A DNA stretch of 64,000 bases from IMG/VR virus record IMGVR_UViG_3300043548_000722, positions 1-64,000 of that record. One strand, written 5' to 3'. Numbering within the stretch: the first letter of the stretch is position 1; each line of letters begins with the position of its first letter. A program made the translations under genes and the position numbers. The notes under the pieces were generated by a model. That model had not been told where the DNA came from. It ran no database searches and saw only the letters and a list, made by a program, of their open reading frames with translations. This stretch comes from a virus. This document shows positions 21,555 through 35,842 of this stretch, piece after piece.

Positions 21555-21641
21555 TTTGGGCTCACTTCATCTGAGGTAGGCGATAGAAGACGACAATACC
21601 CTTCAGCCGTCCGGGGTGCTACGGCAAGGCTCCTTGTTGCC

Positions 21642-23255
21642 TTACTCACTACGGAACAGTCCGCTTAGACGATCGAAGACAGAGCGCGGCTTTTCGGCAG
21701 AATCCTTCTTCTTGACTGCCCCCAGTGTTCGAAGAAGTGGGATGTCATCGCCAAGCTCGTCTGCTCTCCGGTGGACGGTGTCTGCGGTTTCGTTGACTAC
21801 TTTCTGAGCTGCGCGGGAGGCTGTGTCGGCCACAAAGCTGGCTCCAGATGTAAGGGCACTCTTGGCCGCAGGAACGATCACATGCTTCATGGCTGCGGTG
21901 CCTCCGGCTCCCGCCGCCGCACCGACTCCGGTGTTGACCGCCAAGGACGTCAAGTGATGCTTTACTCTTTTTTTGTACTCTTCGGGAGTAATTTCACCAC
22001 GATCCAACGCGGCTTTATCGTTTAAATACGCATCTTTTCTGTTATAGACTGCCTTTCCAGCTCCAAGCGCGCCCCCTACAGCGCCAAACCTAGTATACGG
22101 ACTCATTGCCTGCTTTAGGCTGCCAGCCTGGGAAAACTCGTCGCATACGCTCTGCGGCTCTGCCTGGAAAGAAAATCTCTCGCAGTACCCAGATCCATCA
22201 CTCAGGGAGCGAAAGAACGAGCAAGTCTCGCAGCGAAAGTCTCCTGCGGTAGGCCTGTAGTTTGGAGCATCTTCCGCCCCAGCCACTTTTGAGTTCTCTT
22301 TAAATTTTCGAAAAATTTCCCGTGCAGAGCTGACTTTATCCATCTTTTCAGGCTCTAAAGATTCGAGATAACCAGGCTCAAGTTCCTCTCTCCGCCTGTC
22401 AAGTTCAGCGTCAATCTTTCTTCTCTTAGAAGCAATATACTCGTTAGCTAAGTTTTTTGCGAGGGCGACACCAGTTATCGCGCCTCCGACTGCCCCCATG
22501 CGCGCAAATGGACCTGGAAGATCATCCATGTTCCTCGCGATGAATGGAATGGAATGATCGATCATCGTACCTGCGGTGGCTCCGACGATGGATCCGCCCG
22601 CAAAGGCTGGCACCCCAAGGGCGTAATAGGGTACCGTAGACGTCATCAAGTCTCTGCGCTTCTTTTCAAGGTCGGCAGTCGACATCGAATCAAAGCCCGA
22701 GGCAAACTTCCGCTGTCCCGTTCGTGCTGAGCTGATCTTGTTGATGCCCGCGGACGATGCGCCATCGCCAACAACACGACCAAAACCTTGGCGCTGTTGG
22801 TATGGCGGGTACATCTGGTCGATGAGCGATTTCTGCCGCTCAGGTTGATCCGCGGGTCCCTGGAACATTGCGGGGTTGAGCAGCGCAGACTCAATCCGCT
22901 CCGCGGTCAACGGATAGACGTTCCCTCCAAGCTCAAAAGTGTGGAACGGCTGTAGGAGTCGATCCGCAACGATGATCGGGATTCGAACCATATTTTGTGG
23001 ATTTTTTGATGCAGTAGCAGCGGCCGGATCGTTGCGGGCCATCAGAAGCGCATGGCCAAAAGCAAACCCCGCTTCCGGCTCTACTCTCTGCATATTGAGG
23101 TCGATCTCATACTGAGAAAGAAACGGAAGCTGCTGATGCAGGTTACTCAGCACATGCGCGGGCCACTTCGTATCGTCGTCCGGCATCTTGGCGATCGACG
23201 CCATCTTCTCGAAGAAGCTATGCGGATCCACCGGCTTGAGGAAGAGAGATGTCAT
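21642..23255 (-). CDS. modular KxA protein: globular N-domain, glycine-zipper modules, HiPIP-like Cys module
   Basis: Likely ATG 23255 (SD GAGG). EKMAS, NKISS, RKFAS, DKVSS, SKVA and LKQA separate distinct segments. Confidence 0.7.
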   Translation of the reverse strand: MTSLFLKPVDPHSFFEKMASIAKMPDDDTKWPAHVLSNLHQQLPFLSQYEIDLNMQRVEPEAGFAFGHALLMARNDPAAATASKNPQNMVRIPIIVADRLLQPFHTFELGGNVYPLTAERIESALLNPAMFQGPADQPERQKSLIDQMYPPYQQRQGFGRVVGDGASSAGINKISSARTGQRKFASGFDSMSTADLEKKRRDLMTSTVPYYALGVPAFAGGSIVGATAGTMIDHSIPFIARNMDDLPGPFARMGAVGGAITGVALAKNLANEYIASKRRKIDAELDRRREELEPGYLESLEPEKMDKVSSAREIFRKFKENSKVAGAEDAPNYRPTAGDFRCETCSFFRSLSDGSGYCERFSFQAEPQSVCDEFSQAGSLKQAMSPYTRFGAVGGALGAGKAVYNRKDAYLNDKAALDRGEITPEEYKKRVKHHLTSLAVNTGVGAAAGAGGTAAMKHVIVPAAKSALTSGASFVADTASRAAQKVVNETADTVHRRADELGDDIPLLRTLGAVKKKDSAEKPRSVFDRLSGLFRSE

Positions 23256-23266
23256 TCGTACCTCTG

Positions 23267-24352
23267 TCAATCCGCTTCGAGGACTGACGACAGAAAGGAG
23301 CCTTGTCCGGCGAGCGAGTCTACAATATCACTAAGAAGGTCATCCGTCGCAGCTGTCGTAAATCCGAGTGTGTTAAGGGCGACCTTGATCTCAGTAAGCG
23401 ACGCTTGAAGCTTCGTCAGGAACTCTGTCCCAAGCATGACGGGCTGAGCCGTTCCCGCATCTGTTTCCTGCGCGATCCGAAGTTTACCATCCAAGGTTAG
23501 GAGGGCGCTGCCGGATCTCGCGACTTTCAGAGAAAGAGATTGATCCGGGACATCTGCTTCCTCATCGGAGTTGACCTCGAATAAATATACACAAGCGGCA
23601 GGATCGAGAGAAGACGGACGGAGGGCAATAACATCTTCAGGAATTAAGCCCAACAGAGGGTCTTCTATATAAAGCGTCGTTTGCTGTGAAGAAAGTGCGG
23701 GGATTGGGACACTGCCGTCTAGCTCTACTCGATCGGCCTCGGTAAACCCAACTTTACTGCGCACAGACCACGACGGGGACTGGGCAAATTCTCGAACGGT
23801 CGTTTCGTAGTAGAACGCCGGAAAGAAGGTTCCGGCGTCTTCGCTATCAATACAAACTTTTTCCTCGGTGGAGCCGATTGTCTCGACGATCATGTGGCGC
23901 GCGACCACCGTGAGGGTGTCCGTTCGACCCTCTGCCACTATCCGGGAAAGGCCGCTTCCTCGCAGTTCAGTAGTACCGTTTCTGGTAATAAATACTCCAT
24001 TCTGTCCCTCTGCTACGCAGGCCATATCTCCGGGACTAAGGTATGGACGATTTGAGTGGTATGATCCAGGCTTACCGTCCGTTGTGACGGACGAAACCAG
24101 AGGCGCCCCAGCGATTAAGTACGCCCCAGAGTGGTCAGAAGATACCGCCACGAGACAGTGGGATCCTACCTCCGGCATGTAGTGCAGACCGGCGCCGGTC
24201 GCGCTCTGGTACACAGAAGATATGATCCCTGTTACAAATTCTCTCTGAACCTGATCACACCTGACGACACAGGTCCACCGAGAAGGATCGACAGATATAA
24301 TCCTCCCAGAGAAAATTTGTGCGTCAATGGGCTTACGCGGAAAGCTGCTCAT
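23267..24352 (-). CDS. putative baseplate spike (gpV/gp5-type OB fold)
   Basis: GRIISVDP...GLHYMPEVGSHCLVA OB-fold pattern, beta-repeat middle, VMLG-x2-FL-x2-L C-terminal helix. Confidence 0.6.
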   Translation of the reverse strand: MSSFPRKPIDAQIFSGRIISVDPSRWTCVVRCDQVQREFVTGIISSVYQSATGAGLHYMPEVGSHCLVAVSSDHSGAYLIAGAPLVSSVTTDGKPGSYHSNRPYLSPGDMACVAEGQNGVFITRNGTTELRGSGLSRIVAEGRTDTLTVVARHMIVETIGSTEEKVCIDSEDAGTFFPAFYYETTVREFAQSPSWSVRSKVGFTEADRVELDGSVPIPALSSQQTTLYIEDPLLGLIPEDVIALRPSSLDPAACVYLFEVNSDEEADVPDQSLSLKVARSGSALLTLDGKLRIAQETDAGTAQPVMLGTEFLTKLQASLTEIKVALNTLGFTTAATDDLLSDIVDSLAGQGSFLSSVLEAD

Positions 24353-24858
24353 TGATTCGGACGTCTATTCTTTAGGGCGTTGTACCCTAAATAACCTGTC
24401 CCCAGGGCACCCGCACCCGCTGTAGTAAGGGCCGCCCCACCCAGCAGTTGCTGTCCCTGCGTTCTCGCCACGTCGAGCTGTCTCAGCGAAACGGGACCAA
24501 GACCCCGTTCTGCCGCACGCTGGTTAACATTAGCAAGTAGTCTGTCTGTAGCTCCGCTCGTCAGTTTGCCTCCCCTACTGGAAGCCCAGTCCATCATGCG
24601 GCCACCAAGACCAGTCCGAGAACCTGAGACACCCGCACCTCCCGCACCTGCAATTGCTTTACCAGCACGGTAAACACCTCCAGTTACGGCCTTGCCGACA
24701 TCTGCAAGAAGGGCCTCCTTTTCCATTTCCATGAATGCTTGCGCGTATGGAGCAGGGAGCTGTCCATCGCATGTTCCGTACCTCTCGACGAGAACAGATG
24801 CCCTCTTTTCGAGTTCATTGCGGAGTAGAGCTTCTTGGTAGGCGGCGATCTTGTCCAT
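24349..24858 (-). CDS. MDKIAAYQ-leader glycine-zipper protein
   Basis: MDKIAAYQ...ELEKRAS...MEKEA followed by a Gly-rich amphipathic/hydrophobic region; directly downstream of the RNAP. Confidence 0.7.
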   Translation of the reverse strand: MDKIAAYQEALLRNELEKRASVLVERYGTCDGQLPAPYAQAFMEMEKEALLADVGKAVTGGVYRAGKAIAGAGGAGVSGSRTGLGGRMMDWASSRGGKLTSGATDRLLANVNQRAAERGLGPVSLRQLDVARTQGQQLLGGAALTTAGAGALGTGYLGYNALKNRRPNQ

Positions 24859-24865
24859 GGTGACC

Positions 24866-27800
24866 TCAAAGGAAGGAGAAGAAGCCGGGTGACTTTTGCG
24901 GAGCTTGCGGGGCCGGCGTGGGCACTTGACCAGGCTTCGGTATGTTCGTCATTCTATCAGGCACGCCTGGGGCATTGGGGAGCTTTGTTGAGCCCGGAGG
25001 CTCAAGTCCGAACTCTGCCCCGTGCGCGATGCCCGGAATCGGGTGTCCGTGAATGTCAGACTTCCAGTTCTGTGCTGCACCTTCGGTGTACGTCTCCTGG
25101 AGACGCTGGAAGTTTAGCCTCGCCATCCAGTCTTCTTGCCCTGCGAGAGGCATCTTGTCCAGAGGCTTGAGCTGTGGCGAGTGCTTGATCTCGCGCTTGT
25201 TCATTGCGCGCAGTTCCTTGTTCTTCCGCTCGATCTCGGAGAGGGGGACAAGCTGCCCACGCAGGTAGGCGTGATCGTCCCCAGGATCATCCACACGAGT
25301 GAGGTCCGTCATCGCGCGAATCACTGTCTCGATGTTGCGTCTCCTCTCGTTCCCCGTCGTCTCCACGTAAAGCTCGTTGAGAGAGTCCGCGAGGTGCATG
25401 CGAACTGCGCTCATGCTCTTTGTGATGTCGAGGACGTGATGCGGATTCTTTCTCCCCTCAGAGAGTGCCTCTGCCTTGTCGACTTCGACACCAACCCGAA
25501 TGTTTGGCAGCAGCGGGTTGGTGAACGGGACAGTGTGGACTTTACCGGCAATTGTGACTGTCTTACCTCCGAGCGCGTCTGACTCGATCTTCTCGACCTT
25601 TCCGGAGACCGTAGACAGAGTGGCCTCTCCTTTTAGCTTGGCCGGAACCTTGAAGAGGTTTTCTGCCGCCGTGAAGTAGTCTCCCACGCCACTTGTTCCG
25701 CCGACGCCTCCCGTGTGGAAGGTACGCATTTGCATCTGGGTGATCGGCTCTCCAAGCGCATGACCGGCGATGATGCCGACATTGGTGCCGACTGGGTACA
25801 GCGAACCGCGTTCGCTGAGACCGTAACAGGTTGCGCAGATACCCTTGACCTCGTTGCAGTAGAGTGGGGAGCGTACGAGAATCTTCTTGGGGCCGTCGTT
25901 CTTGATCTTACTCCGCAGTTGAGGAGTGATCAGAGTTCCCTTGGGGATGGTTTCCCCGCCCTTCAGAGGAACCTCTCCGGCGAGGAAGCGTCCTTCGATG
26001 TCTGCTTCCATGGACGAAAGCAGGGCACCACGAACTGTTCCGCAGTCCTTTGACTTAATCGTATTGTCGATGACCGTGTTGATTAGCTCCTTCGTCAGGG
26101 CGCCAGGCTTCGCCGTTGCCGATGCGCGGTCAATGGTTCCTTTCCGTGCGCCATGAAGCGACGCATAGTACTGCGAGACCGGAAGGCCCTCTCCGAAGGA
26201 CTTGGTGATCGCGAATGGAACTGTGCGGTTGAGTGGATCCTGCACGAGCAGCGGGCCCATGACCATCTGGCCAAACTGATTCCAATCGCCCTTGGCGCCG
26301 GAGCGTGCCCAGTCCCACATTCCGTTGTCCAGACGGGAGTTGTAGCGGGCCTCTCCAGCTTCCTTGAGTTCCTTGCGGGCCTTCTCGTAGATCGAGATGA
26401 TCTTCTCGTCCTTGGCTGCCTTCGATCCTGCGCCCTTGAGGACGGCCTCTTCCTCTTTCTTGTATTTGGCCAGGATCTCGTCGCGGAGTTTGTATCCGTC
26501 GTGGAAGTCATTGAGCTTCACACTCGACCCATTTTTGAACGCCAAATTAAAGCCGAGGGCTTTCCACTCATCGATCATCTTGGCGAACTCTTCTGGGGTC
26601 GCCCGTGCAATCTTTGTTGCAAACTTCTTCATCTTTCCCTTGGCCATACGGAAAGATGAGTCGTAGAGAAGCTCCTCGTCCCCACGGAACTGCGCCGGCA
26701 GTGTTCGGTTGATCATGAGTCGGCCTGCCGTAGTGGGCTTGCTGTGACCCGTAACCTTGATGACGTTGTAAACCTTCAGCTTGCCGGCCCTCACTGCCTG
26801 AATTGCTTGGTCCTCCGTGAACTGACCCGGAACCGGCTTGCCCCACTCCGTCGCCTGGAAGATTCCAAGAACAGAATCCTGAGACGGCGTCACCATCAGC
26901 CCTCCACTGGTCGGAGAGAAGAGGTTCTTCGAGGGCATCATGTTCTTGGCTTCTTGTACGGCTCCTTCGGTGATGGGCACATAGAGCGCCATCGTGTCTC
27001 CGTCGAAGTCCGCGTTGAAGCCTCCCGTGACGAGGGGATGGATCTTGATCGACTTCCCCTCAATCAGGCGCGGGCGGAACGCCATCAGCGAGAACATGTG
27101 GAGGGAGGGATCGCGTTTCATGAGCGCGGGCCGGTCTCGAACCACCCTCTCAAGGGCCTCGTTGGCGGCCGGATGGTTTTTCTTGATCATCATGCGTGCC
27201 TCTCCCGGAGAGGTCGCACGGCCCATGTTGCGCCACAGTTCCTTGATGACGAAGGGCTTGTACATTTCCATCGCCATCTCTCGAGGCACGCCAACCTCAT
27301 CAAGTGGCATCTCTGGATCTGGCGTGATGACGGAACGGCCGGAAAGATCCTGTCGCTTCCCGAGCACTCCCGTCTGGAAGAAGGACTGCTTCGGCTGATT
27401 GCCAGTAAGCTTGTCCATCAGAGAAGGAACCTGCTTTCCTTCCATCTGCATGCCAGTGACGCGCAGAGCCTTCGTTGTGTTGTAAATCTCGGCCTGAATG
27501 CGCTGGATCTCTCCGACAGGCATTTTCTCTTTTTCGGCCTGCTCAAGTTGCCGCGTCATTTGGCCAATGATTGCGTACATCTTGTTGGCGGGATCGATGA
27601 TCTGCGTGCCGTCAAAGCCAATGCTTACCCTACGGAGTGTCGGAGGCAGAACTGGGAGGACACGGTTGGTGTACGCATCCACAGGCTTGATATCGAGCTC
27701 TTTTAGAGCGCGAAGATACCGAACCCGTTTATAGGCTACATTCAGCTCGTTCTCGGTTGCAGTCTGAAGCTTCTTTTCGGCGGCCTTAAGTTCCGTGTCT

Positions 27801-30800
27801 ACGTCCAGGTCGCGAAGCTTTTCTTCGAGAACTGCGAAGCCTGACTTTTGGCCGACGGAGCCGGACTCTGTCAGCAACTTTTGAAACTCCCCGTCTGGCA
27901 TTTTCAGGAGTAGACGGATGGGCTCTTCAAACACAGGGTTGGGGATCCGAACCCCAAGATCCATATGTGTCCACTTCGTACCTTCCAGGCCTCCCGTCTT
28001 AACCTTGTCAAATAGGCCACCCTTTTCTTCTTTGGTGAGAGAGCCTTTGGCAGCAAGCGTTTTCTCAGGGAATGCCAGCGCACCCGAACTTTGAGCAAGC
28101 GTCTGCTTATCCGTCATGGGCATGAGAGAGTACTCTCTACCCTTGCGCTCAGTGTAGACGCCCATCGCGCGCAAGTAGTGAGTAAACTGCTCCATCGAAC
28201 GAGGAACCTTCGGAGGGGGCGGACGCTCTCCGCGCATGATGCGGGTCCAGACATCCTCTGCCTGCTCCCGGTCAGACTTGTAGGTCTGCATTTCTCGAAG
28301 GTTGTTTTTTGCACCATAGGCAAGGAGGGTGTACGAATCGAGGCCTCCGATTCTCTGGCCTCCCTCTCCAATGCCCGAACCCTGTGACGCCTCTCCCGTG
28401 GTCTTGTACGCGTAGCCGAAACCACCGGCACGGGCCGAGATCTTTTTCTCCGCCTGGTGATCCAGCTTCAAGATGTACTGGTTGCCTACGAGAACGTTTC
28501 CGAGGTTCTCGCCCGTCTCAGGATCGAATAGCTCCTCCGTATCCGAGACACTGTGTTTCTGCATCAAGTCCTTGACCATCGCAGAGTAGTCTGTAGAGGC
28601 ATCAAAGTTGTTGACGACGAAGGGCTTACCCGTCTTTAGGGCCACCTTACCCGCCACGCTCTCGAGAACCTGTCCAGGATTCATACGCGAGGGAATGCCT
28701 GCGGGAGACAACAAGACCTGGACGTGGTTGCCGTCCTTATCTTTCGGCATCTGGTCGTCGGGCAGGATCTTGGTCACGATCCCTTTGTTTCCATGACGGC
28801 CGGAGAGCTTGTCTCCGACCTCCATTGTCTGTTCAGTACGGATGTAGACCATGATCCGCCGACCGTTGTTGACCACCCGCGCAACTGTCCCATTGTACTC
28901 GTGATCCCACTTCACAGACGCGTCGGAGTAGTCCTGAATCGCGCCCTTCAAGCGACGACGGATGTCCTCCGTGTCTTTGGATATTGCCATCTTCTGAAGT
29001 TTTGCAATCAAAACATCCCCAGGCTCGACCTTCTGGCCGACCTGGATAAGTCCATTGTCATCGAGCTTCTGAAGAATCTCAGGCGTCGCCTTTACGGGTC
29101 CAGCATACTGGCGCCAGAGTTTCTTGTTGACGACGATGTTCGGGTGCATCTCCGCTTCAGCAACGTGAAGATGGCTCGACACAAGCTTCTCGGCGGCGGA
29201 CTCCGAGATGACAATGCCGTCCTCGAAGTTGTACCCACGATACGGAATGTATGCGACTCGCAGGTTTGTTCCGAGAGACAGCTTTCCCTGCTTCGTAAAG
29301 TTTGAGTCGGCGAGAAGCTGGCCTTGGCGAACTTTATCGCCCACAGCAACCACCGGATCGGAGTGAAGCATGTGCTTCGCGCCATTGAGCGGGAAGTTGT
29401 TGTAGATGGCGTGGGTGTACTTCTTACCGTCTGTACCCAAAACAATAATACGGTCTTTTTTAACCTCAGTGACATTACCATCCGCATCAGACAGGACGGC
29501 TGCGGTGGCTCCAACAATGTCCTCGTACGTTGATCCCGCAGATGCCTGTGTCTGGACCAGCGGGGCCTCACGGTTTCTCAAGCCAACAGCCTGCTCTTGG
29601 TGCTTAGCGGCCATCATGGCGCGGTTGCCATTGTCGTTTTGTACAAACGGAATCAGGTTTGCACTGGCTGCGAAGAGGAGCTTTGCGGATGGAAGGATGT
29701 AGTCAACATCCTTCCATGCCCGCTTCGTTGTGTTCCTGTCCTTGTCATATACAACGACAAACTCAGAGAGTGGCGTGACCTTAGCCGTTCCATCTGGCTT
29801 CTTCTCGACCTTGGCCTGGTCAGGATACGCGACAACCGCCCGCTCCAGATCGGCGGCACTCTTTCGTTCAATCTTTCCAGTGCGGACATTTACGACCTGC
29901 GCCATCAGGTCGTGCCCAAATTTCTGAGCACCCAGCGGAACGTGGAGGATGATTCCAGTGTGCGAACTTTCCGGGGTCTGAAGTGGGTCAAGCATCCCGA
30001 GATGGCTGGGATTGATCAGCTTATCCTGCATCAGGTTGACGTTGTCTCCCTTGATGCCTCCAAACTCTGCGCCCAAGATGGTTGTGCGCGTATGATTGGA
30101 AAGGAACTGGAGAGGATTTGTCTGCGTTGGAAGCTGACCGGCTTTAAAGGGTTTAATGATCGCGGCGCCATACCCAGACACAGATGCGGGAATAATGTCC
30201 TGGATTCTATCCTTGCGATCGACATTGTTACGGATCTTGCGCGTGAGCGCATAGATCGTCTTGCCCTTTGTCAGTTCTTCATAGACGAAGTCCTCTGCCC
30301 CAAAAAGTCTTTTGTTTGTGAGAGACTGACGGTCATCCTCGGGAACATCTCCACGGCTGATGTCCACCAGTTTCTTTGCCGAAAGTAGCAGGGCTTCGCC
30401 CGTGATCGACGAGAACTCCTTGCCGAAGGCAGACTTCATTGTCTGTGGGCTGACCTCAGCAGACTCAAATGTCTCCTTTACATAGGCTGCCGCAGCTGAC
30501 ACTTCCGGAGGCTTGTAGTCCGGTCCCGCGCGCCGACCCTCAACCGCCTTGTGGAAGGAAAGCAACGCCTTCGAGCTACCCTTGGCCTCGTTGACGGCAA
30601 AAATCTTTTCCCCGAGCGCGCTCTTCATCTGCCCGTCGCTAACGCCCATCGCTACCAGGATTGGGTAGATCGGCACCTCCACCGACGATGTCGCGCTGCT
30701 CTTGATCGTCATCGTGATCAAGCCGAGCTTCTTAGGATCTTTACGTTCAATGTAAAGATCGAAGGAACCAACCTTGCTGCCTGCGGCGACGTTCCATTTT

Positions 30801-31216
30801 GCGAGCAGATCACCGTTCTGCGCTTCCGCGTGGTACGCGCCGGGATTGAGCCGGAACACGCTGTCCAGCTGCATCTCGTTCCCTCCGACGATGTAGCTGT
30901 AGCGCGTGGTGATTTTAGGAATCTTTGCGAGCGTACGAGATCTCTGATCCAGCACCTTCCCAGTTGCCTTATCAATCAGACGAAAGTTTCCGACAAGCTC
31001 TGGGCCCCAGGTCTGATCGTTCATCTTGGCTTCGAGCTGACTGTTGTAGTTGCTGGGATTGAATTGGGCCGACCCGGTCGCGTCGTCATCCTCAACTTCC
31101 AGCTTTACCAGCTCGAGACGATGCTTACTTCCCTCGATAGGAAAGTGAGAAGAAATCGCCTCTTTTGTCTTCTGAACCAGAAGATTGTAGCTTTCGGTCG
31201 GGTTCAGATTGGACAT
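24866..31216 (-). CDS. rpoBC: DNA-directed RNA polymerase, fused beta-beta' single polypeptide
   Basis: Beta motifs QTPES, LIPF..NDNGNRAMM, GYNFEDGI, GDKLSGRHGNKG, PSRMNPGQ. Beta' motifs LGKRQDLSGRSVI, catalytic NADFDGD (26996..27016), bridge helix HGARKG, ICATCYG, trigger loop GEPITQMQMRTFHTGG. Confidence 0.97.
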   Translation of the reverse strand: MSNLNPTESYNLLVQKTKEAISSHFPIEGSKHRLELVKLEVEDDDATGSAQFNPSNYNSQLEAKMNDQTWGPELVGNFRLIDKATGKVLDQRSRTLAKIPKITTRYSYIVGGNEMQLDSVFRLNPGAYHAEAQNGDLLAKWNVAAGSKVGSFDLYIERKDPKKLGLITMTIKSSATSSVEVPIYPILVAMGVSDGQMKSALGEKIFAVNEAKGSSKALLSFHKAVEGRRAGPDYKPPEVSAAAAYVKETFESAEVSPQTMKSAFGKEFSSITGEALLLSAKKLVDISRGDVPEDDRQSLTNKRLFGAEDFVYEELTKGKTIYALTRKIRNNVDRKDRIQDIIPASVSGYGAAIIKPFKAGQLPTQTNPLQFLSNHTRTTILGAEFGGIKGDNVNLMQDKLINPSHLGMLDPLQTPESSHTGIILHVPLGAQKFGHDLMAQVVNVRTGKIERKSAADLERAVVAYPDQAKVEKKPDGTAKVTPLSEFVVVYDKDRNTTKRAWKDVDYILPSAKLLFAASANLIPFVQNDNGNRAMMAAKHQEQAVGLRNREAPLVQTQASAGSTYEDIVGATAAVLSDADGNVTEVKKDRIIVLGTDGKKYTHAIYNNFPLNGAKHMLHSDPVVAVGDKVRQGQLLADSNFTKQGKLSLGTNLRVAYIPYRGYNFEDGIVISESAAEKLVSSHLHVAEAEMHPNIVVNKKLWRQYAGPVKATPEILQKLDDNGLIQVGQKVEPGDVLIAKLQKMAISKDTEDIRRRLKGAIQDYSDASVKWDHEYNGTVARVVNNGRRIMVYIRTEQTMEVGDKLSGRHGNKGIVTKILPDDQMPKDKDGNHVQVLLSPAGIPSRMNPGQVLESVAGKVALKTGKPFVVNNFDASTDYSAMVKDLMQKHSVSDTEELFDPETGENLGNVLVGNQYILKLDHQAEKKISARAGGFGYAYKTTGEASQGSGIGEGGQRIGGLDSYTLLAYGAKNNLREMQTYKSDREQAEDVWTRIMRGERPPPPKVPRSMEQFTHYLRAMGVYTERKGREYSLMPMTDKQTLAQSSGALAFPEKTLAAKGSLTKEEKGGLFDKVKTGGLEGTKWTHMDLGVRIPNPVFEEPIRLLLKMPDGEFQKLLTESGSVGQKSGFAVLEEKLRDLDVDTELKAAEKKLQTATENELNVAYKRVRYLRALKELDIKPVDAYTNRVLPVLPPTLRRVSIGFDGTQIIDPANKMYAIIGQMTRQLEQAEKEKMPVGEIQRIQAEIYNTTKALRVTGMQMEGKQVPSLMDKLTGNQPKQSFFQTGVLGKRQDLSGRSVITPDPEMPLDEVGVPREMAMEMYKPFVIKELWRNMGRATSPGEARMMIKKNHPAANEALERVVRDRPALMKRDPSLHMFSLMAFRPRLIEGKSIKIHPLVTGGFNADFDGDTMALYVPITEGAVQEAKNMMPSKNLFSPTSGGLMVTPSQDSVLGIFQATEWGKPVPGQFTEDQAIQAVRAGKLKVYNVIKVTGHSKPTTAGRLMINRTLPAQFRGDEELLYDSSFRMAKGKMKKFATKIARATPEEFAKMIDEWKALGFNLAFKNGSSVKLNDFHDGYKLRDEILAKYKKEEEAVLKGAGSKAAKDEKIISIYEKARKELKEAGEARYNSRLDNGMWDWARSGAKGDWNQFGQMVMGPLLVQDPLNRTVPFAITKSFGEGLPVSQYYASLHGARKGTIDRASATAKPGALTKELINTVIDNTIKSKDCGTVRGALLSSMEADIEGRFLAGEVPLKGGETIPKGTLITPQLRSKIKNDGPKKILVRSPLYCNEVKGICATCYGLSERGSLYPVGTNVGIIAGHALGEPITQMQMRTFHTGGVGGTSGVGDYFTAAENLFKVPAKLKGEATLSTVSGKVEKIESDALGGKTVTIAGKVHTVPFTNPLLPNIRVGVEVDKAEALSEGRKNPHHVLDITKSMSAVRMHLADSLNELYVETTGNERRRNIETVIRAMTDLTRVDDPGDDHAYLRGQLVPLSEIERKNKELRAMNKREIKHSPQLKPLDKMPLAGQEDWMARLNFQRLQETYTEGAAQNWKSDIHGHPIPGIAHGAEFGLEPPGSTKLPNAPGVPDRMTNIPKPGQVPTPAPQAPQKSPGFFSFL

Positions 31217-31236
31217 TAAAAATATCTCCAGTGCAG

Positions 31237-31244
31237 GTCATAAG
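31237..31244 (+). promoter_or_regulatory. GTCATAAG candidate promoter element
   Basis: AAAA-N14-GTCATAAG followed by hairpin GCCGGAG-TATAG-CCCCGGC and SD AAGGAG; divergent from the RNAP gene. Confidence 0.5.
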
Positions 31245-31282
31245 TATAACAGCCGGAGTATAGCCCCGGCAAAGGAGAGTAG

Positions 31283-31357
31283 ATGAGCGAGCCCGACGAT
31301 ACTGAGGAAGGGAAGGCCAACCCCTGGAAGAAAACGGACGAGTTCGGAGACTGGTAA
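31283..31357 (+). CDS. small ORF, 24 aa (MSEPDDTEEGKANPWKKTDEFGDW)
   Basis: Strong SD AAGGAG; TAATG-coupled to the next small ORF; below the track cutoff. Confidence 0.45.
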   Translation: MSEPDDTEEGKANPWKKTDEFGDW

Positions 31358-31446
31358 TGCTTTCAATACTGTTTGTTGCCGCCGCAATCGCGGCGGCTTT
31401 GAAGACGGCGGGGCAGGTGATTGCCTCTGAGATTGGTGACAAGTAA
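31357..31446 (+). CDS. small hydrophobic ORF, 29 aa (MLSILFVAAAIAAALKTAGQVIASEIGDK)
   Basis: TAATG coupling; single hydrophobic helix. Confidence 0.4.
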   Translation: MLSILFVAAAIAAALKTAGQVIASEIGDK

Positions 31447-31457
31447 GACCGCGGGGC

Positions 31458-31492
31458 GCCTCCGATCTCGGCTCAACGCCGAGATCGGGGGC
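31458..31492 (+). promoter_or_regulatory. 15-bp hairpin occluding the RBS of ORF 31493
   Basis: GCCTCCGATCTCGGC-TCAAC-GCCGAGATCGGGGGC immediately followed by ATG. Confidence 0.65.
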
Positions 31493-31741
31493 ATGCCCTC
31501 GCGTCCACACAGAAGCGACCTTCTTTTTAAGACCGAGGAGGAAGACACCATTCAGGTCTACTGCCCCCTCATCGAAGAGAAGTGTGGACTTCTGGAGTGT
31601 GGCGGATGCCCCGCGATTGGGCCAAGAGTCTGGCTCTGTTCTGCCTGCGTTCGAGTATACCCAGCAGAACCGTTCTGGACGTCGGGCCACTGTGCCGACT
31701 GTGGAGATTACTCTAGCTTCCTCGCGCCGGTGAAGAGATGA
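31493..31741 (+). CDS. small Cys-rich (Zn-finger) protein
   Basis: CPL...C...CGGC...CSAC...CADC; start reassigned from 31421. Confidence 0.55.
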   Translation: MPSRPHRSDLLFKTEEEDTIQVYCPLIEEKCGLLECGGCPAIGPRVWLCSACVRVYPAEPFWTSGHCADCGDYSSFLAPVKR

Positions 31742-31992
31742 TTCCGTTTCGATGCGACTGGTGCGACGCGACTGCCACGACAGATGACCGCATGGTCAGC
31801 CTGGCGCGGCATCGTGTTGTACGTCGTCCCCGCAAGTGGGACATTGAGGACGAAACCTTCTCAACCTTCGGAAGCGAGGCGATGTTCCACGAAAAGTGCT
31901 TCGTGGACAACGCGCGAGAAATTCTTGACGGTCTATACAGTGGTATCCAGATCGACCAGCCCAGGAAGAGACCGGCCGATCTCACTCGCTGA
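31738..31992 (+). CDS. small Zn-finger protein
   Basis: CDWC...HEKC; overlaps the upstream stop (ATGA). Confidence 0.55.
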   Translation: MIPFRCDWCDATATTDDRMVSLARHRVVRRPRKWDIEDETFSTFGSEAMFHEKCFVDNAREILDGLYSGIQIDQPRKRPADLTR

Positions 31993-31994
31993 GG

Positions 31995-34031
31995 TCAGCC
32001 GATTGCTCTTCCTGGGTCAGCCTGTGGCGTTCCGTTAGGTGCCGGATTTTGCTGCGCGTTGAGAGGATCGATCTGCGAGCCGCGGTCATTCATTAGTTGG
32101 ATAACCAGCTGATACAACGGAGGATTCTCCATCTGCATTTGCTGAAGAGCTTGATACATGGCTTCTTCGCCCTGTTCTTTTTTTAGCATGCGTAAGAACG
32201 ATGCTGCGCGCTGCGCGATGTACCGCAGGTCCACACCCCCTGACCCAGGCTGGATTGGTGACTGGGCAGACGCCATAGCGGCGGGCATTCCATCCTGATT
32301 CGGAGTGGCCGCATTCTCATCGTAGGCGGTAGCTCCTTCTGGAAGCCCAGGAGTTTGCTGAGCCTGATCTCCAGCGGGTCCCTGCTGAGCGGCCGGGTCT
32401 TGCGGCATTGCGCCCTGCGCTTGCTGCTGTGCGGCAGCCTGCTGCGCTGCCTGCTGCATCTCCATTTGTACCTGGCCCTGTGCGCGCATGGTCAGGGCCT
32501 GCGCCTTGGCTTGGTAGCGTGAGGTCCGAAGCTGGGCTTCTCCCTGAATATCTGCCGAAGCGACCTGCATGCGGCGATTGGACTGAAGCTGCTTCTTGAT
32601 CTCTTCGCGCATGCGCTCCGACTCGAGATCGAAATCCTCCCCAAGTTCTTCCATGAGGCGATGATCGCTGATCTTCTGAGCCTGGTTGAGTTGGAGGTAG
32701 AACATGCTTCTTTGCAAGTCATCAGCCATACGGAACTTGTCGAATCTCGACGAGACCTTGGGCCACTCCATGAAGGAGGCAATCTTACCCATGATGAAGA
32801 CGTTGATCAGCTCGTGGCGCTGCTTGTTGTACCCCAGGAACATGTTTTCCAGTGCCCGGAGCGAGGTACTCGATCCAGACCACTGGAGTCCTCCGAAGAT
32901 GAACTCCACAGGAATGCCGGCGCCAGCAAGCATCTGCTCAGCCAGAAGACGCATCTCTTGGTACATCAACAGGGCGCGACCTTGTCCACCGATCTGCTGG
33001 AATCCGATGTTGACAGGAAGGACCGGGATGTAGTTGTGATCCCGCTTCCACATGTTGATTTCTTCATCTACCCGACGTTTCCAGTTCGTCAGGTTGTAGG
33101 CCCCGTAGGGCCCCTCGTTGCCTCCAGTGTTCTGGCCCGGGAAGATCATCCGCATGGGAACGATGTTCTCCATGAGGATTGCCTCGTTGGCCTTCTTCAT
33201 GACCTGGAGGTAGAACGCATCCTTCAGAAGCGGGAAGATCAGGGGCGTGCCCCAGCCTTGATCCTTCTGGGCGATCGTCGGTCGCTTCAGATGGTAGAGG
33301 TTGTCCTCCGAAAAGAGGAGTGACTTGTTCGCGCGGGCGGCTTCAAGGAACTCGAGGGGAAGCGACTCAATCTCGTCGCAGTCTCCAAGTTTGATGTCGT
33401 TGATCACGCTCTTGGGTAGGCGGAAGTAGTACTTGGTCTTTCCAGTAATCTCGTTGTGCTTGATGTCGATGTTCTCTGGATTCCACCGAACCAGGCGAAT
33501 CTGGCGGAAGCTCCGAACGTAGACATCGTGCTGCTTCGCGTAGCCCTCGTGGCCACAGTCGCACTTGTGAAGGTAGAAACGAGAGTCACGCCACTTGTAG
33601 CGGAATCTGTTGGTCTTGGCACGGTAGCGTGCGCCGCAGGAAGCACAGATGAGGTACTTCTCGAACGGCAGGAACACCGAGACAAAGGCGTTTCCGTATA
33701 CGAAGTAGTCGAGCCCGACCTCGACCTGAAATGAGCGCAGCTTGAGGTGATCCTCTACCTTCTTATAAAGCTTCATCACCTCCGGGTCGTCTGTCTCAAA
33801 AATAAGAGGGGTGACCGGGTACTCTGCCATTTTGGAGCACGCGGCGTTGATCACCGGATTTGTCAAGAAGTAATACCGGCACCACTTGTGTAGTTCGTGC
33901 TGATTAGATGGAAGGAACTGCTGAGAGATGTCAAAGAACGGCGACGGATAGCGAATGCCGAATCCTCGGCCACCCTCAGTGGTGACTGGCCTCGGATTAA
34001 AACGGTTTACTTCGCTGGTAATGACGTTCAT
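31995..34031 (-). CDS. portal protein with Zn-ribbon insert and Gln/Ala-rich C-terminal extension
   Basis: YFLTNPVINAACSKMAEYP, DYFVYGNAFV, RWNPENI, LYHLKR...GWGTPL and AGIPVEFI are portal-like motifs. Confidence 0.85.
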   Translation of the reverse strand: MNVITSEVNRFNPRPVTTEGGRGFGIRYPSPFFDISQQFLPSNQHELHKWCRYYFLTNPVINAACSKMAEYPVTPLIFETDDPEVMKLYKKVEDHLKLRSFQVEVGLDYFVYGNAFVSVFLPFEKYLICASCGARYRAKTNRFRYKWRDSRFYLHKCDCGHEGYAKQHDVYVRSFRQIRLVRWNPENIDIKHNEITGKTKYYFRLPKSVINDIKLGDCDEIESLPLEFLEAARANKSLLFSEDNLYHLKRPTIAQKDQGWGTPLIFPLLKDAFYLQVMKKANEAILMENIVPMRMIFPGQNTGGNEGPYGAYNLTNWKRRVDEEINMWKRDHNYIPVLPVNIGFQQIGGQGRALLMYQEMRLLAEQMLAGAGIPVEFIFGGLQWSGSSTSLRALENMFLGYNKQRHELINVFIMGKIASFMEWPKVSSRFDKFRMADDLQRSMFYLQLNQAQKISDHRLMEELGEDFDLESERMREEIKKQLQSNRRMQVASADIQGEAQLRTSRYQAKAQALTMRAQGQVQMEMQQAAQQAAAQQQAQGAMPQDPAAQQGPAGDQAQQTPGLPEGATAYDENAATPNQDGMPAAMASAQSPIQPGSGGVDLRYIAQRAASFLRMLKKEQGEEAMYQALQQMQMENPPLYQLVIQLMNDRGSQIDPLNAQQNPAPNGTPQADPGRAIG

Positions 34032-35050
34032 GACTGCTCATCCTTTCCCTGACCGAATGCTCTGTCTAAGACAGAGCCAGCAGATCCTGTAACGTCAGAA
34101 GCCAGTCCTTCAAATGGAACTGCTGCCATCCCTACCGCTGACGGAACGATCAGTTTCTGGCTTAGGAAAGACCTCTTTCCGCCTGTGATCAAGTTAGATT
34201 TACCTAATCCTAAGTTTCTACCGGTAAATAGATGAGCCGTTCCAGCGGTGATACCCGCAGCAGTTAGGCCACGAGCGAGCCTCTCCGCAACACCACGCTC
34301 ATTGCCCTCATCGTCGGTGGAGGGGAGCGCGTTGGCGACACCAGTGACTCCCACCTGGCCGACCTCAATCGCCCGCTCGCCTGGCATATACGTGGAGATG
34401 CCCCCGCGTAATTTTACGTTCTGTGCGCCAGCTTCTTGGCCGATCTGCCGATACGCGTCAAGCAACTCTTCCTCTGGAATCATTTCTCCCGCGCGCTGGC
34501 GATCCATGATGCTTGTAATTTTAGATCTTAAGTTGTCGCTAGCGTTAAACTTCGGATCTTTGTTAAAAAATCCAGTCAGCCCACCAGAGGACCTTTCGCC
34601 TGCGCTTGCCCATCCTCCCTTGCGGGCTGCTCCAGCCGTATCTGATAACGCGTCAAACTGTGTTGCAGTGCCATCAAGCGCGTTTTCAAAGGCCTCATTC
34701 ATAAGCTCCACGCGTTTAGACCTAGCAGCCCCCTGAGTAAACTCGTCGGCATTATTTCCTGCGAAGCTGGCTCCGCTTGACAGCCCGCGCTTAATACTTT
34801 GAACGGGCTTAGTCGCTACTTCCTTAGCTGCCGTAAAGAGCTTACCGGCCCCGCTAGGATTACGAAGTAGGGCCGCACCAGCTACCAAACCTCCGATTGC
34901 GGGGAGAACCACGCCCGGACCCGTGAAGTTTCTTTGTATGATATTTTTTTTCTTTGGCTCCTGTGCCTCTGGCGCAGAGGGGGTAGCCGAAGAAATCCCA
35001 GCTTGTTTTTGCAACTCAAGTGAGAACGAGTAAAGAACGCTTTTATTCAT
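34028..35050 (-). CDS. ELQKQA-leader glycine-zipper membrane-type protein
   Basis: YSFSLELQKQA leader, several Gly-rich hydrophobic segments, lower-GC codons. Confidence 0.65.
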   Translation of the reverse strand: MNKSVLYSFSLELQKQAGISSATPSAPEAQEPKKKNIIQRNFTGPGVVLPAIGGLVAGAALLRNPSGAGKLFTAAKEVATKPVQSIKRGLSSGASFAGNNADEFTQGAARSKRVELMNEAFENALDGTATQFDALSDTAGAARKGGWASAGERSSGGLTGFFNKDPKFNASDNLRSKITSIMDRQRAGEMIPEEELLDAYRQIGQEAGAQNVKLRGGISTYMPGERAIEVGQVGVTGVANALPSTDDEGNERGVAERLARGLTAAGITAGTAHLFTGRNLGLGKSNLITGGKRSFLSQKLIVPSAVGMAAVPFEGLASDVTGSAGSVLDRAFGQGKDEQS

Positions 35051-35053
35051 AGT

Positions 35054-35842
35054 TCACCTCAGCTCGGCAGTGTAGCGGAAGAGGGCATCGACGGCCTCAT
35101 ATAGTTTTACCGCGCATATATCATCAGCAGTTTCTAGAAGGGTCGGGTTCTTTTTACTTAGAAGAGCGACCAGGGTCCTCTGCACGCCCGCAGTTGGAAG
35201 CTTAGTGACAATCTTTACCTTAGACCCATTAAACTTCTTTCGAAGCCCCTCGTCTGGCTCCATCTTCAATAGACTGTCCGTGTTGTATCGGTCTGTGCAG
35301 TAGCTACAGAGGCCATCCTCTTTTGGCTCCTCTTCATTTCCGCACTCTCCGCAGACCTGTGTGGTCTTCGAGATCAGAGGATTTAAAAACTCCAGTGGCT
35401 CCGGTACGTACCAGATTCCCGACTCATGGAGCTGCGCGGCCATATACCGCCGGACCTCCTCCGCAAATAATGGAATGTCTCCGAGGGTCCCTAAGTCCAA
35501 TCGGATTCTGTTAGCCGCATCTACGGCCAACATAAGGTCAGAGACTGACTGGTTATCAATATGTGAAACAGATGGGATCTTACCCACAAGGGCCTGAGAG
35601 ACTGTGTGGAACGTTTCCCAGCTCTTCCAAAACATGTCGTGGTTGGCAACCGAAATGGCCGCCAGTAGCTTCATGAGCACGACACGGGGGATGTTGAGTT
35701 TCAGGCGATCCTCAACAGACCTTTTAACGACAAAAGGTTCCCACTCCAACGCTCTTGGGCCGAAGAGAGAAAGGTAGCCACGAAGCAAGGAGAGAGGATG
35801 ACTCTTCTCGTCCTTGAATACCTGGATATCAGTACCCACCAT
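35054..35842 (-). CDS. hypothetical protein with Zn ribbon
   Basis: 262 aa; CGECG...CSYC. Confidence 0.65.
   Translation of the reverse strand: MVGTDIQVFKDEKSHPLSLLRGYLSLFGPRALEWEPFVVKRSVEDRLKLNIPRVVLMKLLAAISVANHDMFWKSWETFHTVSQALVGKIPSVSHIDNQSVSDLMLAVDAANRIRLDLGTLGDIPLFAEEVRRYMAAQLHESGIWYVPEPLEFLNPLISKTTQVCGECGNEEEPKEDGLCSYCTDRYNTDSLLKMEPDEGLRKKFNGSKVKIVTKLPTAGVQRTLVALLSKKNPTLLETADDICAVKLYEAVDALFRYTAELR

What the first reader, a model, noticed from the sequence alone, without database searches (positions are those of the whole stretch)
24866..31216. Single-chain, streamlined beta-beta' RNA polymerase inside the virion gene block
Seen: one 2116-aa ORF holds all core beta and then beta' motifs, with the junction near 28090-28200 (VPRSMEQFTHYLRAMGV...YSLMPMT). 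The beta' N-terminal Cys4 zinc domain is absent (GGLFDKVKTGGLEGTKWTHMDL), and no alpha, omega or sigma gene is visible in the window. Known: bacterial beta plus beta' total about 2,700 aa in E. coli; phiKZ/AR9 enzymes are split into several subunits; crAss-like single-chain RNAPs are far more divergent; cellular rpoBC fusions occur in Helicobacter and Wolbachia. Inference: a bacterial-like fused phage RNAP that may be virion-packaged, given its position between the portal and the cargo genes. Caveat: I saw no KxAS site in it.
Basis: partly seen in the sequence, partly recalled or inferred. Interest (0 to 1): 0.8.

Follow-up and report, generated by a model that had tools for sequence, protein, structure and literature searches.

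The report
Single-chain phage RNA polymerase with sigma
An uncultured freshwater phage encodes both large subunits of a bacterial-type RNA polymerase as one intact 2116-residue protein next to its portal gene. It also encodes its own sigma factor but no alpha subunit, so it probably brings a two-protein transcription machine into the host, a design shared by a large phage family that is barely described in print.

Summary
ORF 24866-31216 (minus strand, 2116 aa) carries a complete minimal bacterial beta followed directly by beta'. The last strand of beta and the first strand of beta' form a confidently modelled hairpin. The N-terminal Cys4 zinc ribbon of beta' is missing, and the lineage inserts SI1, SI2 and SI3 are absent. 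All catalytic motifs are invariant.

It is not an artefact or a recent host gene. More than 100 full-length orthologues (40-96% identity) lie on phage contigs of up to about 200 kb. Contigs from other freshwater metagenomes cross the junction without indels. In a tree the family lies outside all 19 sampled bacteria and is sister to Salmonella phage Arash and Vibrio phage D69.

"No sigma" holds only for the window. The same contig (78351-79181) encodes a sigma-70-family protein orthologous to Arash Gp10, and a complex model with controls places it on the clamp helices. No alpha was found in this contig, in three related contigs, or in Arash or D69.

Virion packaging is plausible but indirect. 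Published Arash virion proteomics rank the homologue as the most detected protein. This protein has no K-x-A-S site and no MDK leader.

This scan has reported the same family many times on other DNA. I found no paper that describes the fused form.

The parts
24866..31216 (-). Whole ORF for the fused beta-beta' RNA polymerase (2116 aa plus stop), protein P0001
28142..31216 (-). Beta module, residues 1 to about 1025. It is a complete minimal beta (lobes, fork, flap, catalytic region, C-terminal clamp part) without the E. coli inserts SI1 and SI2.
   Evidence: phmmer to 8syi_C: residues 62-1017 match chain positions 70-1049 of 1100. Family HMM covers Salmonella RpoB 51-1339 except 237-424, 933-1046 and 1127-1178.
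28781..28801 (-). Beta catalytic motif GRHGNKG (residues 806-812)
   Evidence: R807, G809, N810 and K811 are invariant in 64 family members
28907..28993 (-). Beta flap-tip region (about residues 742-770), the docking site of sigma region 4 in bacterial enzymes
   Evidence: Collinear with Salmonella RpoB about 890-925 in the HMM alignment. The function is inferred from bacterial holoenzyme structures.
28112..28207 (-). Beta/beta' junction (residues 1004-1035). The end of beta (SMEQFTHYLRAMGVYTERK) joins the start of beta' (EYSLMPMTD) through a two-residue turn.
   Evidence: The AF2 model has strands 1020-1025 and 1028-1033 forming a hairpin at pLDDT above 90. A contig from another metagenome spans it with 0 gaps.
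24989..28135 (-). Beta' module (about residues 1028-2076)
   Evidence: phmmer E 1e-117. AF2 pLDDT 88.4. Foldseek TM 0.79-0.80 to B. subtilis and S. aureus beta'.
27971..28021 (-). Site of the missing N-terminal Cys4 zinc ribbon (residues 1066-1082, GGLFDKVKTGGLEGTKW)
   Evidence: Alignment with actinobacterial beta' rows. No Cys is present here in 16 diverse members.
27476..27628 (-). Beta' clamp helices (coiled coil, residues 1197-1247), the predicted docking site of the phage sigma
   Evidence: Interface residues of the complex model
26996..27016 (-). Catalytic Mg2+ motif NADFDGD (residues 1401-1407)
   Evidence: D1403, D1405 and D1407 are invariant in 64 members
25826..26044 (-). Second beta' zinc site, Cys1725, Cys1787, Cys1794 and Cys1797, the only cysteines in the protein
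   Evidence: all four invariant
24869..24988 (-). Disordered, Pro-rich C-terminal tail with a hydrophobic end (residues 2077-2116). It is conserved only among close relatives.
   Evidence: pLDDT about 30. Tails compared.
31995..34031 (-). Portal homologue (678 aa)
   Evidence: 31% identity over 502 aa to Arash gp204, annotated portal protein, E 3e-87. No Pfam or PHROG hit of its own.
31237..31282 (.). Conserved element 21-66 nt upstream of the RNAP start. On the RNAP strand it reads as an inverted repeat followed by TGTTATAC and TTATGAC. On the other strand it reads GTCATAA, followed by GGAG and an ATG.
   Evidence: Alignment of 11 relatives: the TTATG core is invariant in all 11, and the next base differs only in L013 and L016, which read TTATGGC. 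Only 3 of 8 stem pairs show compensatory change.
31421..31992 (+). Two small Cys-rich ORFs (31421-31741 and 31738-31992) on the strand opposite to the portal and the RNAP
   Evidence: For 31421-31741 the codon phase of substitutions against L008 and L009 fits the plus-strand frame and not the minus-strand ORF. For 31738-31992 the phase fits both strands, and only the plus-strand product looks protein-like.

Best explanation
The ORF encodes the catalytic core of a phage-owned, bacterial-type multisubunit RNA polymerase made as one chain.

Shown:
- A complete minimal beta is joined head-to-tail to beta'.
- The enzyme lacks the N-terminal zinc ribbon of beta' and all lineage-specific inserts.

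Inferred:
- It works as a holoenzyme with the phage's own sigma-70-family factor (contig 78351-79181). Sigma region 2 would dock on the retained beta' clamp helices, and region 4 presumably on the retained beta flap tip.
- No phage alpha or omega takes part. The covalent beta-beta' link would replace at least part of alpha's assembly role.
- By analogy with Salmonella phage Arash, copies of the polymerase and its sigma are loaded into the capsid and enter the cell with the DNA. Early phage transcription would then not depend on host RNA polymerase.
- The single polymerase gene probably serves the whole infection cycle.
For: Identity and integrity:
- Pfam order and E-values.
- Bacterial beta E 5e-90 and beta' E 1e-117, against archaeal and eukaryotic hits of only about 1e-31.
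- Family HMM covers Salmonella RpoB 51-1339 and RpoC 169-947 plus 1132-1346.
- GRHGNKG, NADFDGD and the Cys4 of the second zinc site are invariant in 64 members.
- AF2 model of residues 940-2116: pLDDT 88.4, pTM 0.85, with a beta/beta' hairpin at the junction. Foldseek TM 0.79-0.80 to solved bacterial beta'.
- More than 100 clusters of 2030-2130-aa orthologues lie on contigs up to about 200 kb, and the junction is conserved.
- A contig from another metagenome spans 27906-28700 with 6 substitutions and no gap, 5 of them at third codon positions.
- Inteins in relatives sit in PESS, GRHGNKG, NADFDGD and the trigger loop, as expected for an active essential enzyme.

Viral lineage:
- The record is a viral contig of 107,650 bp, 58% complete.
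- It carries TerL, a protease-like ORF, an MCP-like ORF and a portal homologue.
- The best cellular matches among 185,579 species genomes are 28-34% identical.
- Tree: 19 bacteria form one side (support 100). The fused family is one clade (99) and is sister to Arash plus D69 (99).

Sigma:
- Contig ORF 78351-79181 matches Sigma70_r3 (E 9.5e-12) and r4, both above their cut-offs.
- Its family profile hits solved RpoS, SigA, RpoD and FliA across regions 2-4, E down to 8e-14.
- It is 30% identical over 239 aa to Arash Gp10, E 5.6e-24.
- An r3-bearing ORF is present in 5 of 5 relatives. Several sigma homologues share contig lengths with RNAP orthologues.
- Complex model of RNAP 1000-1340 with sigma: score 0.82, best of 3 controls 0.02. 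That mark was reached by 58 of 80 solved complexes and by 2 of 110 mismatched pairs. The runs agree in at least 64% of contacts, and the partner's pLDDT is at least 75.
- My own alignments were used, so those counts hold only roughly. Sigma-core complexes have been solved, so the pass shows likeness and does not show that this copy binds.
- The interface is RNAP 1197-1247 (clamp helices) with sigma 80-97.

No alpha: PF01000 is absent from the contig. PF01193 is absent from three relatives' contigs (70-89% complete) and from the complete Arash and D69 genomes.

Packaging:
- Arash particles were purified on a gradient. Gp206 was the most detected protein (128 unique peptides, 3516 spectra), followed among others by Gp216 (1210 spectra), sigma Gp10 (467) and portal Gp204 (877) (PMC10585845).
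- RNAP subunits and a sigma factor are also particle-associated in YerA41 (PMC7354516).
- The portal and the RNAP are neighbours in this phage, Arash and D69.
Against: - There are no expression, activity or virion data for this phage or for any full-length fused member.
- The Arash virion list holds 116 proteins, including ribonucleotide reductases, so some entries may be co-purifying proteins. Arash is only about 30% identical and its enzyme is in two chains.
- P0001 has no K-x-A-S site and no MDK(I/L)AAYQ leader. Those are the signals that mark the presumed capsid cargo encoded next to it. If it is packaged, it uses another route.
- The contig is 58% complete, so an alpha-like subunit, a second sigma or a second polymerase could lie in the missing part.
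- Use of host alpha or omega is not excluded.
- Pfam does not detect sigma region 2 in the phage sigma. The complex model may score from memory of solved holoenzymes.
- The tree is a quick LG+G4 search with long viral branches. The mixture-model search did not finish.
Confidence: 0.7

Rival explanations
1. This is a phage RNA polymerase that is not packaged. It is made during infection and transcribes middle or late genes with the phage sigma, while host RNA polymerase transcribes the early genes.
For: - The protein has no K-x-A-S site and no MDK leader.
- The Arash particle proteome is very broad, with 116 proteins.
- In YerA41 the RNAP genes are expressed early and lie in the replication module.
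Against: - The Arash homologue is the top protein by spectra in gradient-purified particles, above the portal and the capsid protein, and its sigma has 100% coverage.
- The gene lies among head genes, as do the virion RNAP genes of other phages (established knowledge of N4 and phiKZ).
- Sigma-70-type promoter matches are not enriched around it: 6 found against 8.2 expected.
Confidence: 0.25
2. The fused chain is not self-sufficient. It assembles with host alpha2, and perhaps omega, into a hybrid core after infection.
For: - The beta and beta' cores are complete and bacterial in fold.
- Cellular fused RpoBC enzymes (Helicobacter) still use alpha (established knowledge).
- No phage alpha exists that could argue otherwise.
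Against: - A packaged enzyme would also have to carry host alpha.
- phiKZ- and AR9-type phage multisubunit RNAPs work without alpha (established knowledge; PMC7598289).
- At 28-34% identity to any cellular enzyme, conserved alpha contacts across many different hosts are doubtful.
- This was not tested directly here.
Confidence: 0.25
3. It is a recently captured host rpoB-rpoC (or rpoBC) gene, or the contig is chromosomal.
For: The best NCBIfam hits are cellular RpoBC, RpoC and RpoB models.
Against: - All scores are far below the equivalog cut-offs, for example 568 against 5372 and 517 against 963.
- Identity to the best of the cellular genomes is at most 34%.
- All 19 sampled bacteria form one side of the tree, apart from the phage clade.
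- The contig is viral and carries terminase, portal, protease and family A DNA polymerase.
Confidence: 0.01
4. The single ORF is an assembly or frameshift artefact that joins two genes.
For: None found.
Against: - More than 100 independent full-length orthologues exist, and their junction sequence is conserved.
- A contig from another metagenome crosses the junction with no indel.
- The junction is modelled as a hairpin at high confidence.
Confidence: 0.01

Closest known systems
RNA polymerase of Salmonella phage Arash (Gp206 1525 aa + Gp216 606 aa, sigma Gp10; OQ632216; PMC10585845) and of Vibrio phages D69, D148 and D181
   Same: - Sister clade in the tree.
- The same direct beta/beta' junction and the same missing zinc ribbon.
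- The portal gene is a neighbour.
- Orthologous small sigma.
- No alpha.
   Different: - Only about 30% identical.
- Their beta' is cut into two genes at the point where cyanobacteria split rpoC1 and rpoC2, with inserted genes or a homing endonuclease in between.
- They carry a second, RpoS-like sigma (gp196 type) that I did not find in this lineage.
- In Arash a small same-strand gene lies between portal and RNAP. Here the spacer most likely holds opposite-strand genes.
- The Arash paper annotates 'beta' and 'beta prime' subunits. I saw no mention of the fusion in the passages I read.
Cellular fused RpoBC (Helicobacter, Campylobacter-related and Wolbachia types; NCBIfam NF007172 and NF011417)
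   Same: One chain with beta then beta', joined end to start, and a bacterial-type catalytic core.
   Different: - Cellular fusions are about 2840-2890 aa, keep the zinc ribbon and lineage inserts, and use alpha and omega (established knowledge).
- This protein scores 568 bits against a cut-off of 5372.
- It branches outside the sampled bacteria, including Campylobacter and Sulfurovum.
YerA41-like phages (Yersinia phages YerA41 and GN1, Cobetia phage Carin-5)
   Same: Bacterial-type beta and beta' plus a phage sigma. The subunits and the sigma are particle-associated in YerA41.
   Different: - Separate genes in the order sigma, beta', beta.
- They sit in the replication and nucleotide module, not in the head block.
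- They form a separate long branch in the tree.
phiKZ- and AR9-type jumbo-phage multisubunit RNAPs (PMC7598289, PMC7824862)
   Same: Phage-encoded double-psi-barrel RNAPs without alpha. One set is packaged in the virion.
   Different: - Those are split into 4-5 polypeptides, are very divergent, come in two paralogous sets, and have no sigma-70-family factor.
- Here there is one chain, one copy found, a clear bacterial-type sequence and a sigma.
crAss-like (phi14:2 gp66) and YonO-type single-chain RNAPs
   Same: Single polypeptide. The crAss-like enzyme is virion-packaged (bioRxiv 10.1101/2020.03.07.982082).
   Different: Those share little beyond the two catalytic barrels with cellular enzymes. 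This protein aligns with bacterial beta and beta' over nearly its whole length.

Membership tests
Bacterial RNAP beta (RpoB) | Rpb2 domains 3, 6 and 7 in order, with the catalytic GRHGNKG lysines | tested here: met
   Pfam. Invariant R807, N810 and K811. Collinear with solved beta over residues 62-1017.
Bacterial RNAP beta (RpoB) | Score above the NCBIfam equivalog cut-off | tested here: not met
   NF001616: 410 bits against cut-off 896. TIGR02013: 388 against 801.
Bacterial RNAP beta' (RpoC) | NADFDGD Mg2+ site, bridge helix and trigger loop region, and the second Cys4 zinc site | tested here: met
   Fold TM 0.79-0.80 to solved beta'.
Bacterial RNAP beta' (RpoC) | N-terminal Cys4 zinc ribbon (E. 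coli Cys70, 72, 85, 88) | tested here: not met
   No cysteine is present and about 30 residues are missing at positions 1066-1082.
Bacterial RNAP beta' (RpoC) | Score above the NCBIfam equivalog cut-off | tested here: not met
   TIGR02386: 517 bits against cut-off 963.5.
Cellular fused RpoBC (NF007172, NF011417) | One chain with beta followed by beta' | tested here: met
Cellular fused RpoBC (NF007172, NF011417) | Orthology: score over the cut-off and placement among bacterial sequences | tested here: not met
   568 bits against 5372, and 502 against 4632. All 19 sampled bacteria form one side of the tree, apart from the phage clade.
Arash-like phage RNAP lineage (informal) | Shared beta/beta' junction without the zinc ribbon, the portal gene as neighbour, and a Gp10-type sigma in the genome | tested here: met
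Arash-like phage RNAP lineage (informal) | Presence of the polymerase and its sigma in purified virions | not testable with these tools
   Known only for Arash (PMC10585845).
phiKZ/AR9-type jumbo-phage RNAP | Beta and beta' each split into two or three polypeptides, two paralogous sets, no sigma-70 factor | tested here: not met
   One chain. One copy in the contig. A sigma is present.
Sigma-70 family (for the partner ORF at contig 78351-79181) | Regions 2, 3 and 4 in order | tested here: inconclusive
   Pfam r3 (45.3 bits) and r4 (25.7 bits) are above their cut-offs. The family profile aligns with solved sigma factors across regions 2-4, E 8e-14. Pfam Sigma70_r2 is not detected, and every NCBIfam subfamily model scores below its cut-off.

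The most novel reading that the evidence does not exclude
The fused chain plus the roughly 270-aa phage sigma form a complete, self-sufficient bacterial-type holoenzyme of only two proteins, with no alpha, omega or zinc ribbon. [quoted passage not shown] That would make it the smallest known bacterial-type transcription system, and one that works across many host phyla.
Probability: 0.35. Interest if true: 0.8.

Novelty: new variant of a known kind. Interest (0 to 1): 0.62.

Why it matters
Bacterial RNA polymerase is thought to need the alpha dimer to assemble beta and beta'. It also uses the beta' zinc ribbon in RNA exit, termination and factor binding. Here a large, widespread phage family keeps a clearly bacterial-type catalytic core as one chain, has lost the zinc ribbon, and has no alpha or omega gene that I could find, yet it keeps a sigma and the two sigma docking sites.

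If the enzyme is active as core plus sigma, it would be a natural minimal model for assembly and initiation, and a candidate orthogonal transcription tool. It would also be a further solution to host-independent early transcription, beside N4, phiKZ and crAss-like phages. A culturable relative, Arash on Salmonella Typhimurium, makes the questions testable now.

Tried and rejected
- No RNA holder was listed among public runs for this stretch, so nothing can be said about expression.
- PHROGs and Pfam gave nothing for 9 of the 10 neighbouring ORFs tested. The portal call rests on homology to Arash gp204.
- hmmsearch of Salmonella beta' 1-175 against the family HMM gave only a collinear match at E 0.06. 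Homology of the beta' N-terminus rests on the multiple alignment with actinobacterial rows and on the model.
- The LG+C20 mixture tree did not finish in two 300-s runs. The reported tree is LG+G4 quick.
- An Arash gp196-type second sigma was not found in the contig or in three relatives.
- No second polymerase copy was found in the 58%-complete contig.
- Sigma-70-type promoter matches are not enriched in 17300-37200: 6 found against 8.2 expected.
- GTCATAA is not enriched contig-wide (13 found against 8.6 expected), although 11 of the 13 are on the plus strand.
- The inverted repeat upstream of the gene has weak covariation support.
- Literature searches for a described fused phage beta-beta' RNAP found none. 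One hit (PMC3821669) concerns N4-like vRNAP and is irrelevant.
- Not done: a model of the beta module 1-1100, and any test of alpha-binding surfaces.

Full report
**1. The observation**

The window holds an ORF at exactly 24866-31216 on the minus strand, 2116 aa, with an ATG start. Pfam finds Rpb2 domain 3 (weak), 6 and 7, and then Rpb1 domains 2, 3 and 5, in that order.

Against solved structures:
- Residues 62-1017 align with a 1100-residue bacterial beta (8syi_C, chain positions 70-1049, E 5e-90).
- Residues about 1106-2057 align with bacterial beta' (E 1e-117).
- Archaeal and eukaryotic subunits reach only about 1e-31.

I built an HMM from 100 full-length relatives and compared it with Salmonella RpoB and RpoC. 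It covers RpoB 51-1339 of 1342, except 237-424, 933-1046 and 1127-1178. It covers RpoC 169-947 and 1132-1346. The missing stretches are therefore the enterobacterial lineage inserts, including SI1, SI2 and SI3, and not core parts.

**2. The junction and the zinc ribbon**

The end of beta (Salmonella [20 protein letters not shown]) corresponds to P0001 about 1004-1024 (PRSMEQFTHYLRAMGVYTERK). The beta' module starts two residues later at EYSLMPMTD.

In a MAFFT alignment that includes actinobacterial beta and beta' rows, the bacterial sequence between GLF and MGHIEL holds the CxC...CxxC ribbon. This protein, the other fused members shown, Arash and D69 have only TGGLEG there. The protein has four cysteines in all, at 1725, 1787, 1794 and 1797. 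These are invariant and form the second beta' zinc site.

An AlphaFold2 model of residues 940-2116, built with a 64-row alignment, has mean pLDDT 88.4 and pTM 0.85. It pairs strand 1020-1025 with strand 1028-1033 as a hairpin. It leaves only the last 40 residues disordered. Foldseek matches it to B. subtilis, S. aureus and other beta' chains at TM 0.79-0.80.

K-x-A-S occurs 0 times against 0.86 expected. K-x-A occurs 14 times against 14.8 expected.

**3. Real gene, viral lineage**

The genome record is a linear viral contig of 107,650 bp, estimated 58% complete. On the same strand as the polymerase lie:
- a capsid-like ORF and a protease-like ORF (both weak hits);
- a large terminase (strong hit);
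- a 678-aa homologue of the Arash portal gp204 (31% identity over 502 aa, E 3e-87).

A replication block follows on the other strand, with helicases, UDG, family A DNA polymerase and RecA.

More than 100 protein clusters of 2030-2130 aa, 40-96% identical, lie on contigs of up to about 200 kb. Fourteen related viral loci were fetched. The junction is conserved across them.

Contigs from other freshwater metagenomes cover the junction. One spans 27906-28700 with six substitutions and no gap, and five of the six fall on third codon positions.

A scan of one genome per 185,579 prokaryote species returned only cellular rpoB-rpoC loci at 28-34% identity.

I built a tree from 1112 well-filled columns with LG+G4 and a quick search. 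The rows were 15 fused proteins, Arash, D69, Carin-5, GN1, RHph_TM30 and 19 bacteria.
- All bacteria fall on one side of a branch (support 100).
- The fused family is one group (99).
- The fused family is sister to Arash plus D69 (99).
- The YerA41-like phages and RHph_TM30 form separate long branches.

The root is unknown and long branches are a caveat. The result still contradicts a recent host origin.

NCBIfam scores are far below every equivalog cut-off.

In relatives, inteins interrupt the chain in or beside strongly conserved motifs. These include PESS, GRHGNKG, NADFDGD, the trigger loop and PSRMN. That pattern fits an active, essential enzyme.

**4. Partners**

The window has no sigma, but the contig does. 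ORF 78351-79181 (276 aa) matches Sigma70_r3 and r4 above their cut-offs.
- Its family of 47 clusters has a profile that aligns with solved RpoS, SigA, RpoD and FliA over regions 2 to 4, E down to 8e-14.
- It is orthologous to Arash Gp10, E 5.6e-24.
- An r3-bearing ORF is present in all five relatives tested.

The two sigma docking sites on the core are retained. These are the beta' clamp helices (1197-1247) and the beta flap-tip region (about 742-770).

A complex model of RNAP 1000-1340 with the sigma scored 0.82, against 0.02 for the best of three controls. That mark was reached by 58 of 80 solved complexes and 2 of 110 mismatched pairs. The runs agree in at least 64% of contacts, and the partner's pLDDT is at least 75. 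My own alignments were used, so those counts hold only roughly.

The model places sigma 80-97 on the clamp helices. Sigma-core complexes have been solved, so this shows likeness to them and does not show that this pair binds.

No alpha domain was found in the contig. None was found in three related contigs or in the complete Arash and D69 genomes. I did not search for omega.

**5. Packaging**

There is no direct evidence for this phage. In Arash, particles purified on a density gradient and then pelleted gave these counts (PMC10585845):
- Gp206: the most detected protein, with 128 unique peptides and 3516 spectra;
- Gp216: 1210 spectra;
- sigma Gp10: 467 spectra at 100% coverage;
- portal Gp204: 877 spectra.

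YerA41 particles also carry RNAP subunits and a sigma (PMC7354516).

Against this, the Arash list is very broad, with 116 proteins. P0001 also has neither the MDK(I/L)AAYQ leader carried by three ORFs downstream of it nor any K-x-A-S site. I rate packaging at about 60%.

**6. Details that refine the picture**

(a) The Arash and D69 enzymes end and restart at HMM positions 1459 and 1463-1466. Cyanobacterial rpoC1 ends at 1457-1459. The shared beta/beta' junction means the fusion predates the split between the two phage groups. I cannot tell whether the cut within beta' is derived.

(b) The 778 bp between portal and polymerase are probably not the two minus-strand ORFs that a mechanical caller gives. 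For 31421-31737, substitutions against two relatives fall in the phase of the plus-strand ORF 31421-31741 and not of the minus-strand ORF. For 31738-31994 the phase fits both strands, but only the plus-strand product (31738-31992) looks like a protein. Both plus-strand products are Cys-rich.

(c) The 21-66 nt upstream of the polymerase start hold an element conserved in 11 relatives. It is an inverted repeat followed by TGTTATAC and TTATGAC. The reverse complement, GTCATAA, is followed by GGAG and a start codon on the other strand. Covariation support for the stem is weak. GTCATAA is not enriched contig-wide but is strand-biased, and it precedes several plus-strand ORFs. I cannot say on which strand the element acts or which polymerase reads it.

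**7. Comparison and novelty**

The closest described relatives are the Arash, D69, D148 and D181 enzymes, which are in two chains. In the passages I read they were annotated only as beta and beta' subunits.

Cellular RpoBC fusions share the topology but not the lineage. They also keep the zinc ribbon.

phiKZ- and AR9-type enzymes are split, far more divergent and lack sigma (PMC7598289, PMC7824862). crAss-like and YonO enzymes share only the catalytic barrels.

I found no paper that describes a full-length fused bacterial-type phage polymerase with its own sigma and no alpha. Most subscription journals are not in the library.

This scan has already reported the same family many times on other DNA: 158 findings in at least 142 genomes hold the search words. 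The eight shown reached the same main conclusions. I class it as a new variant of a known kind.

Noticed in passing
Relatives P0034-P0119 (proteins longer than 2300 aa): Inteins of 330-510 aa interrupt the fused polymerase of many relatives in or beside strongly conserved motifs. The sites are after LDPLQTPE, in GRHGNKG, after NADFDGD, in the trigger loop MRTFH/TGG, in PSRMN and at YKSD. Some proteins carry two inteins.
   Followed up: partly
L002 (Arash) and L001 (D69) compared with L106 and L114 (cyanobacteria): Arash and D69 cut beta' into two genes at family-HMM position 1459, restarting at 1463-1466. This is the point where cyanobacterial rpoC1 ends (1457-1459). In D148 and D181 a homing endonuclease lies under the match to the polymerase, and Arash has about 4.7 kb of other genes between its two pieces.
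   Followed up: partly
window 31217-31994: The mechanical minus-strand ORFs 31238-31690 and 31713-31985 look spurious. They have GTG starts and odd composition, and for the first the substitution phase is wrong. Two small Cys-rich plus-strand ORFs (31421-31741 and 31738-31992) fit better, so an opposite-strand cassette separates the portal from the polymerase.
   Followed up: partly
window 31237-31282: A conserved element lies just upstream of the polymerase start in 11 relatives (RNAP identity 63-96%). It is an inverted repeat followed by TGTTATAC and TTATGAC. On the other strand it reads GTCATAA, then GGAG and ATG at 31283. GTCATAA also precedes plus-strand ORFs at 14012, 16271, 37004 and contig 106270.
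   Followed up: partly
window 18865-19416, 19425-19985, 24349-24858: Three small ORFs downstream of the polymerase begin with (M/V)DK(I/L)AAYQ. ORFs 20052-21554 and 35829-36923 hold 5 and 6 K-x-A-S sites. The polymerase has none.
   Followed up: partly
L121 (Cobetia phage Carin-5) and L122 (Yersinia phage GN1): These YerA41-like phages have the gene order beta' (about 1085-1107 aa) then beta (about 927 aa). In Carin-5 an annotated sigma factor gene lies just upstream, and in GN1 the ORF in that position is annotated as hypothetical. Both polymerase genes are annotated simply as 'beta'.
   Followed up: no
window 51600-57629 and 58422-63194: Two giant minus-strand ORFs (2009 and 1590 aa) were not examined here.
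   Followed up: no
G000:C1 about 107600-107650 (outside the window): The contig ends in what looks like the 5' half of a tRNA gene (GGGGCGGTAGCTCAGTGGTTAGAGCA...).
   Followed up: no
window 27600-28700: All 20 public runs that hold this stretch are labelled freshwater metagenome. They come from 15 studies, and 11 runs hold at least half of the sampled words.
   Followed up: partly
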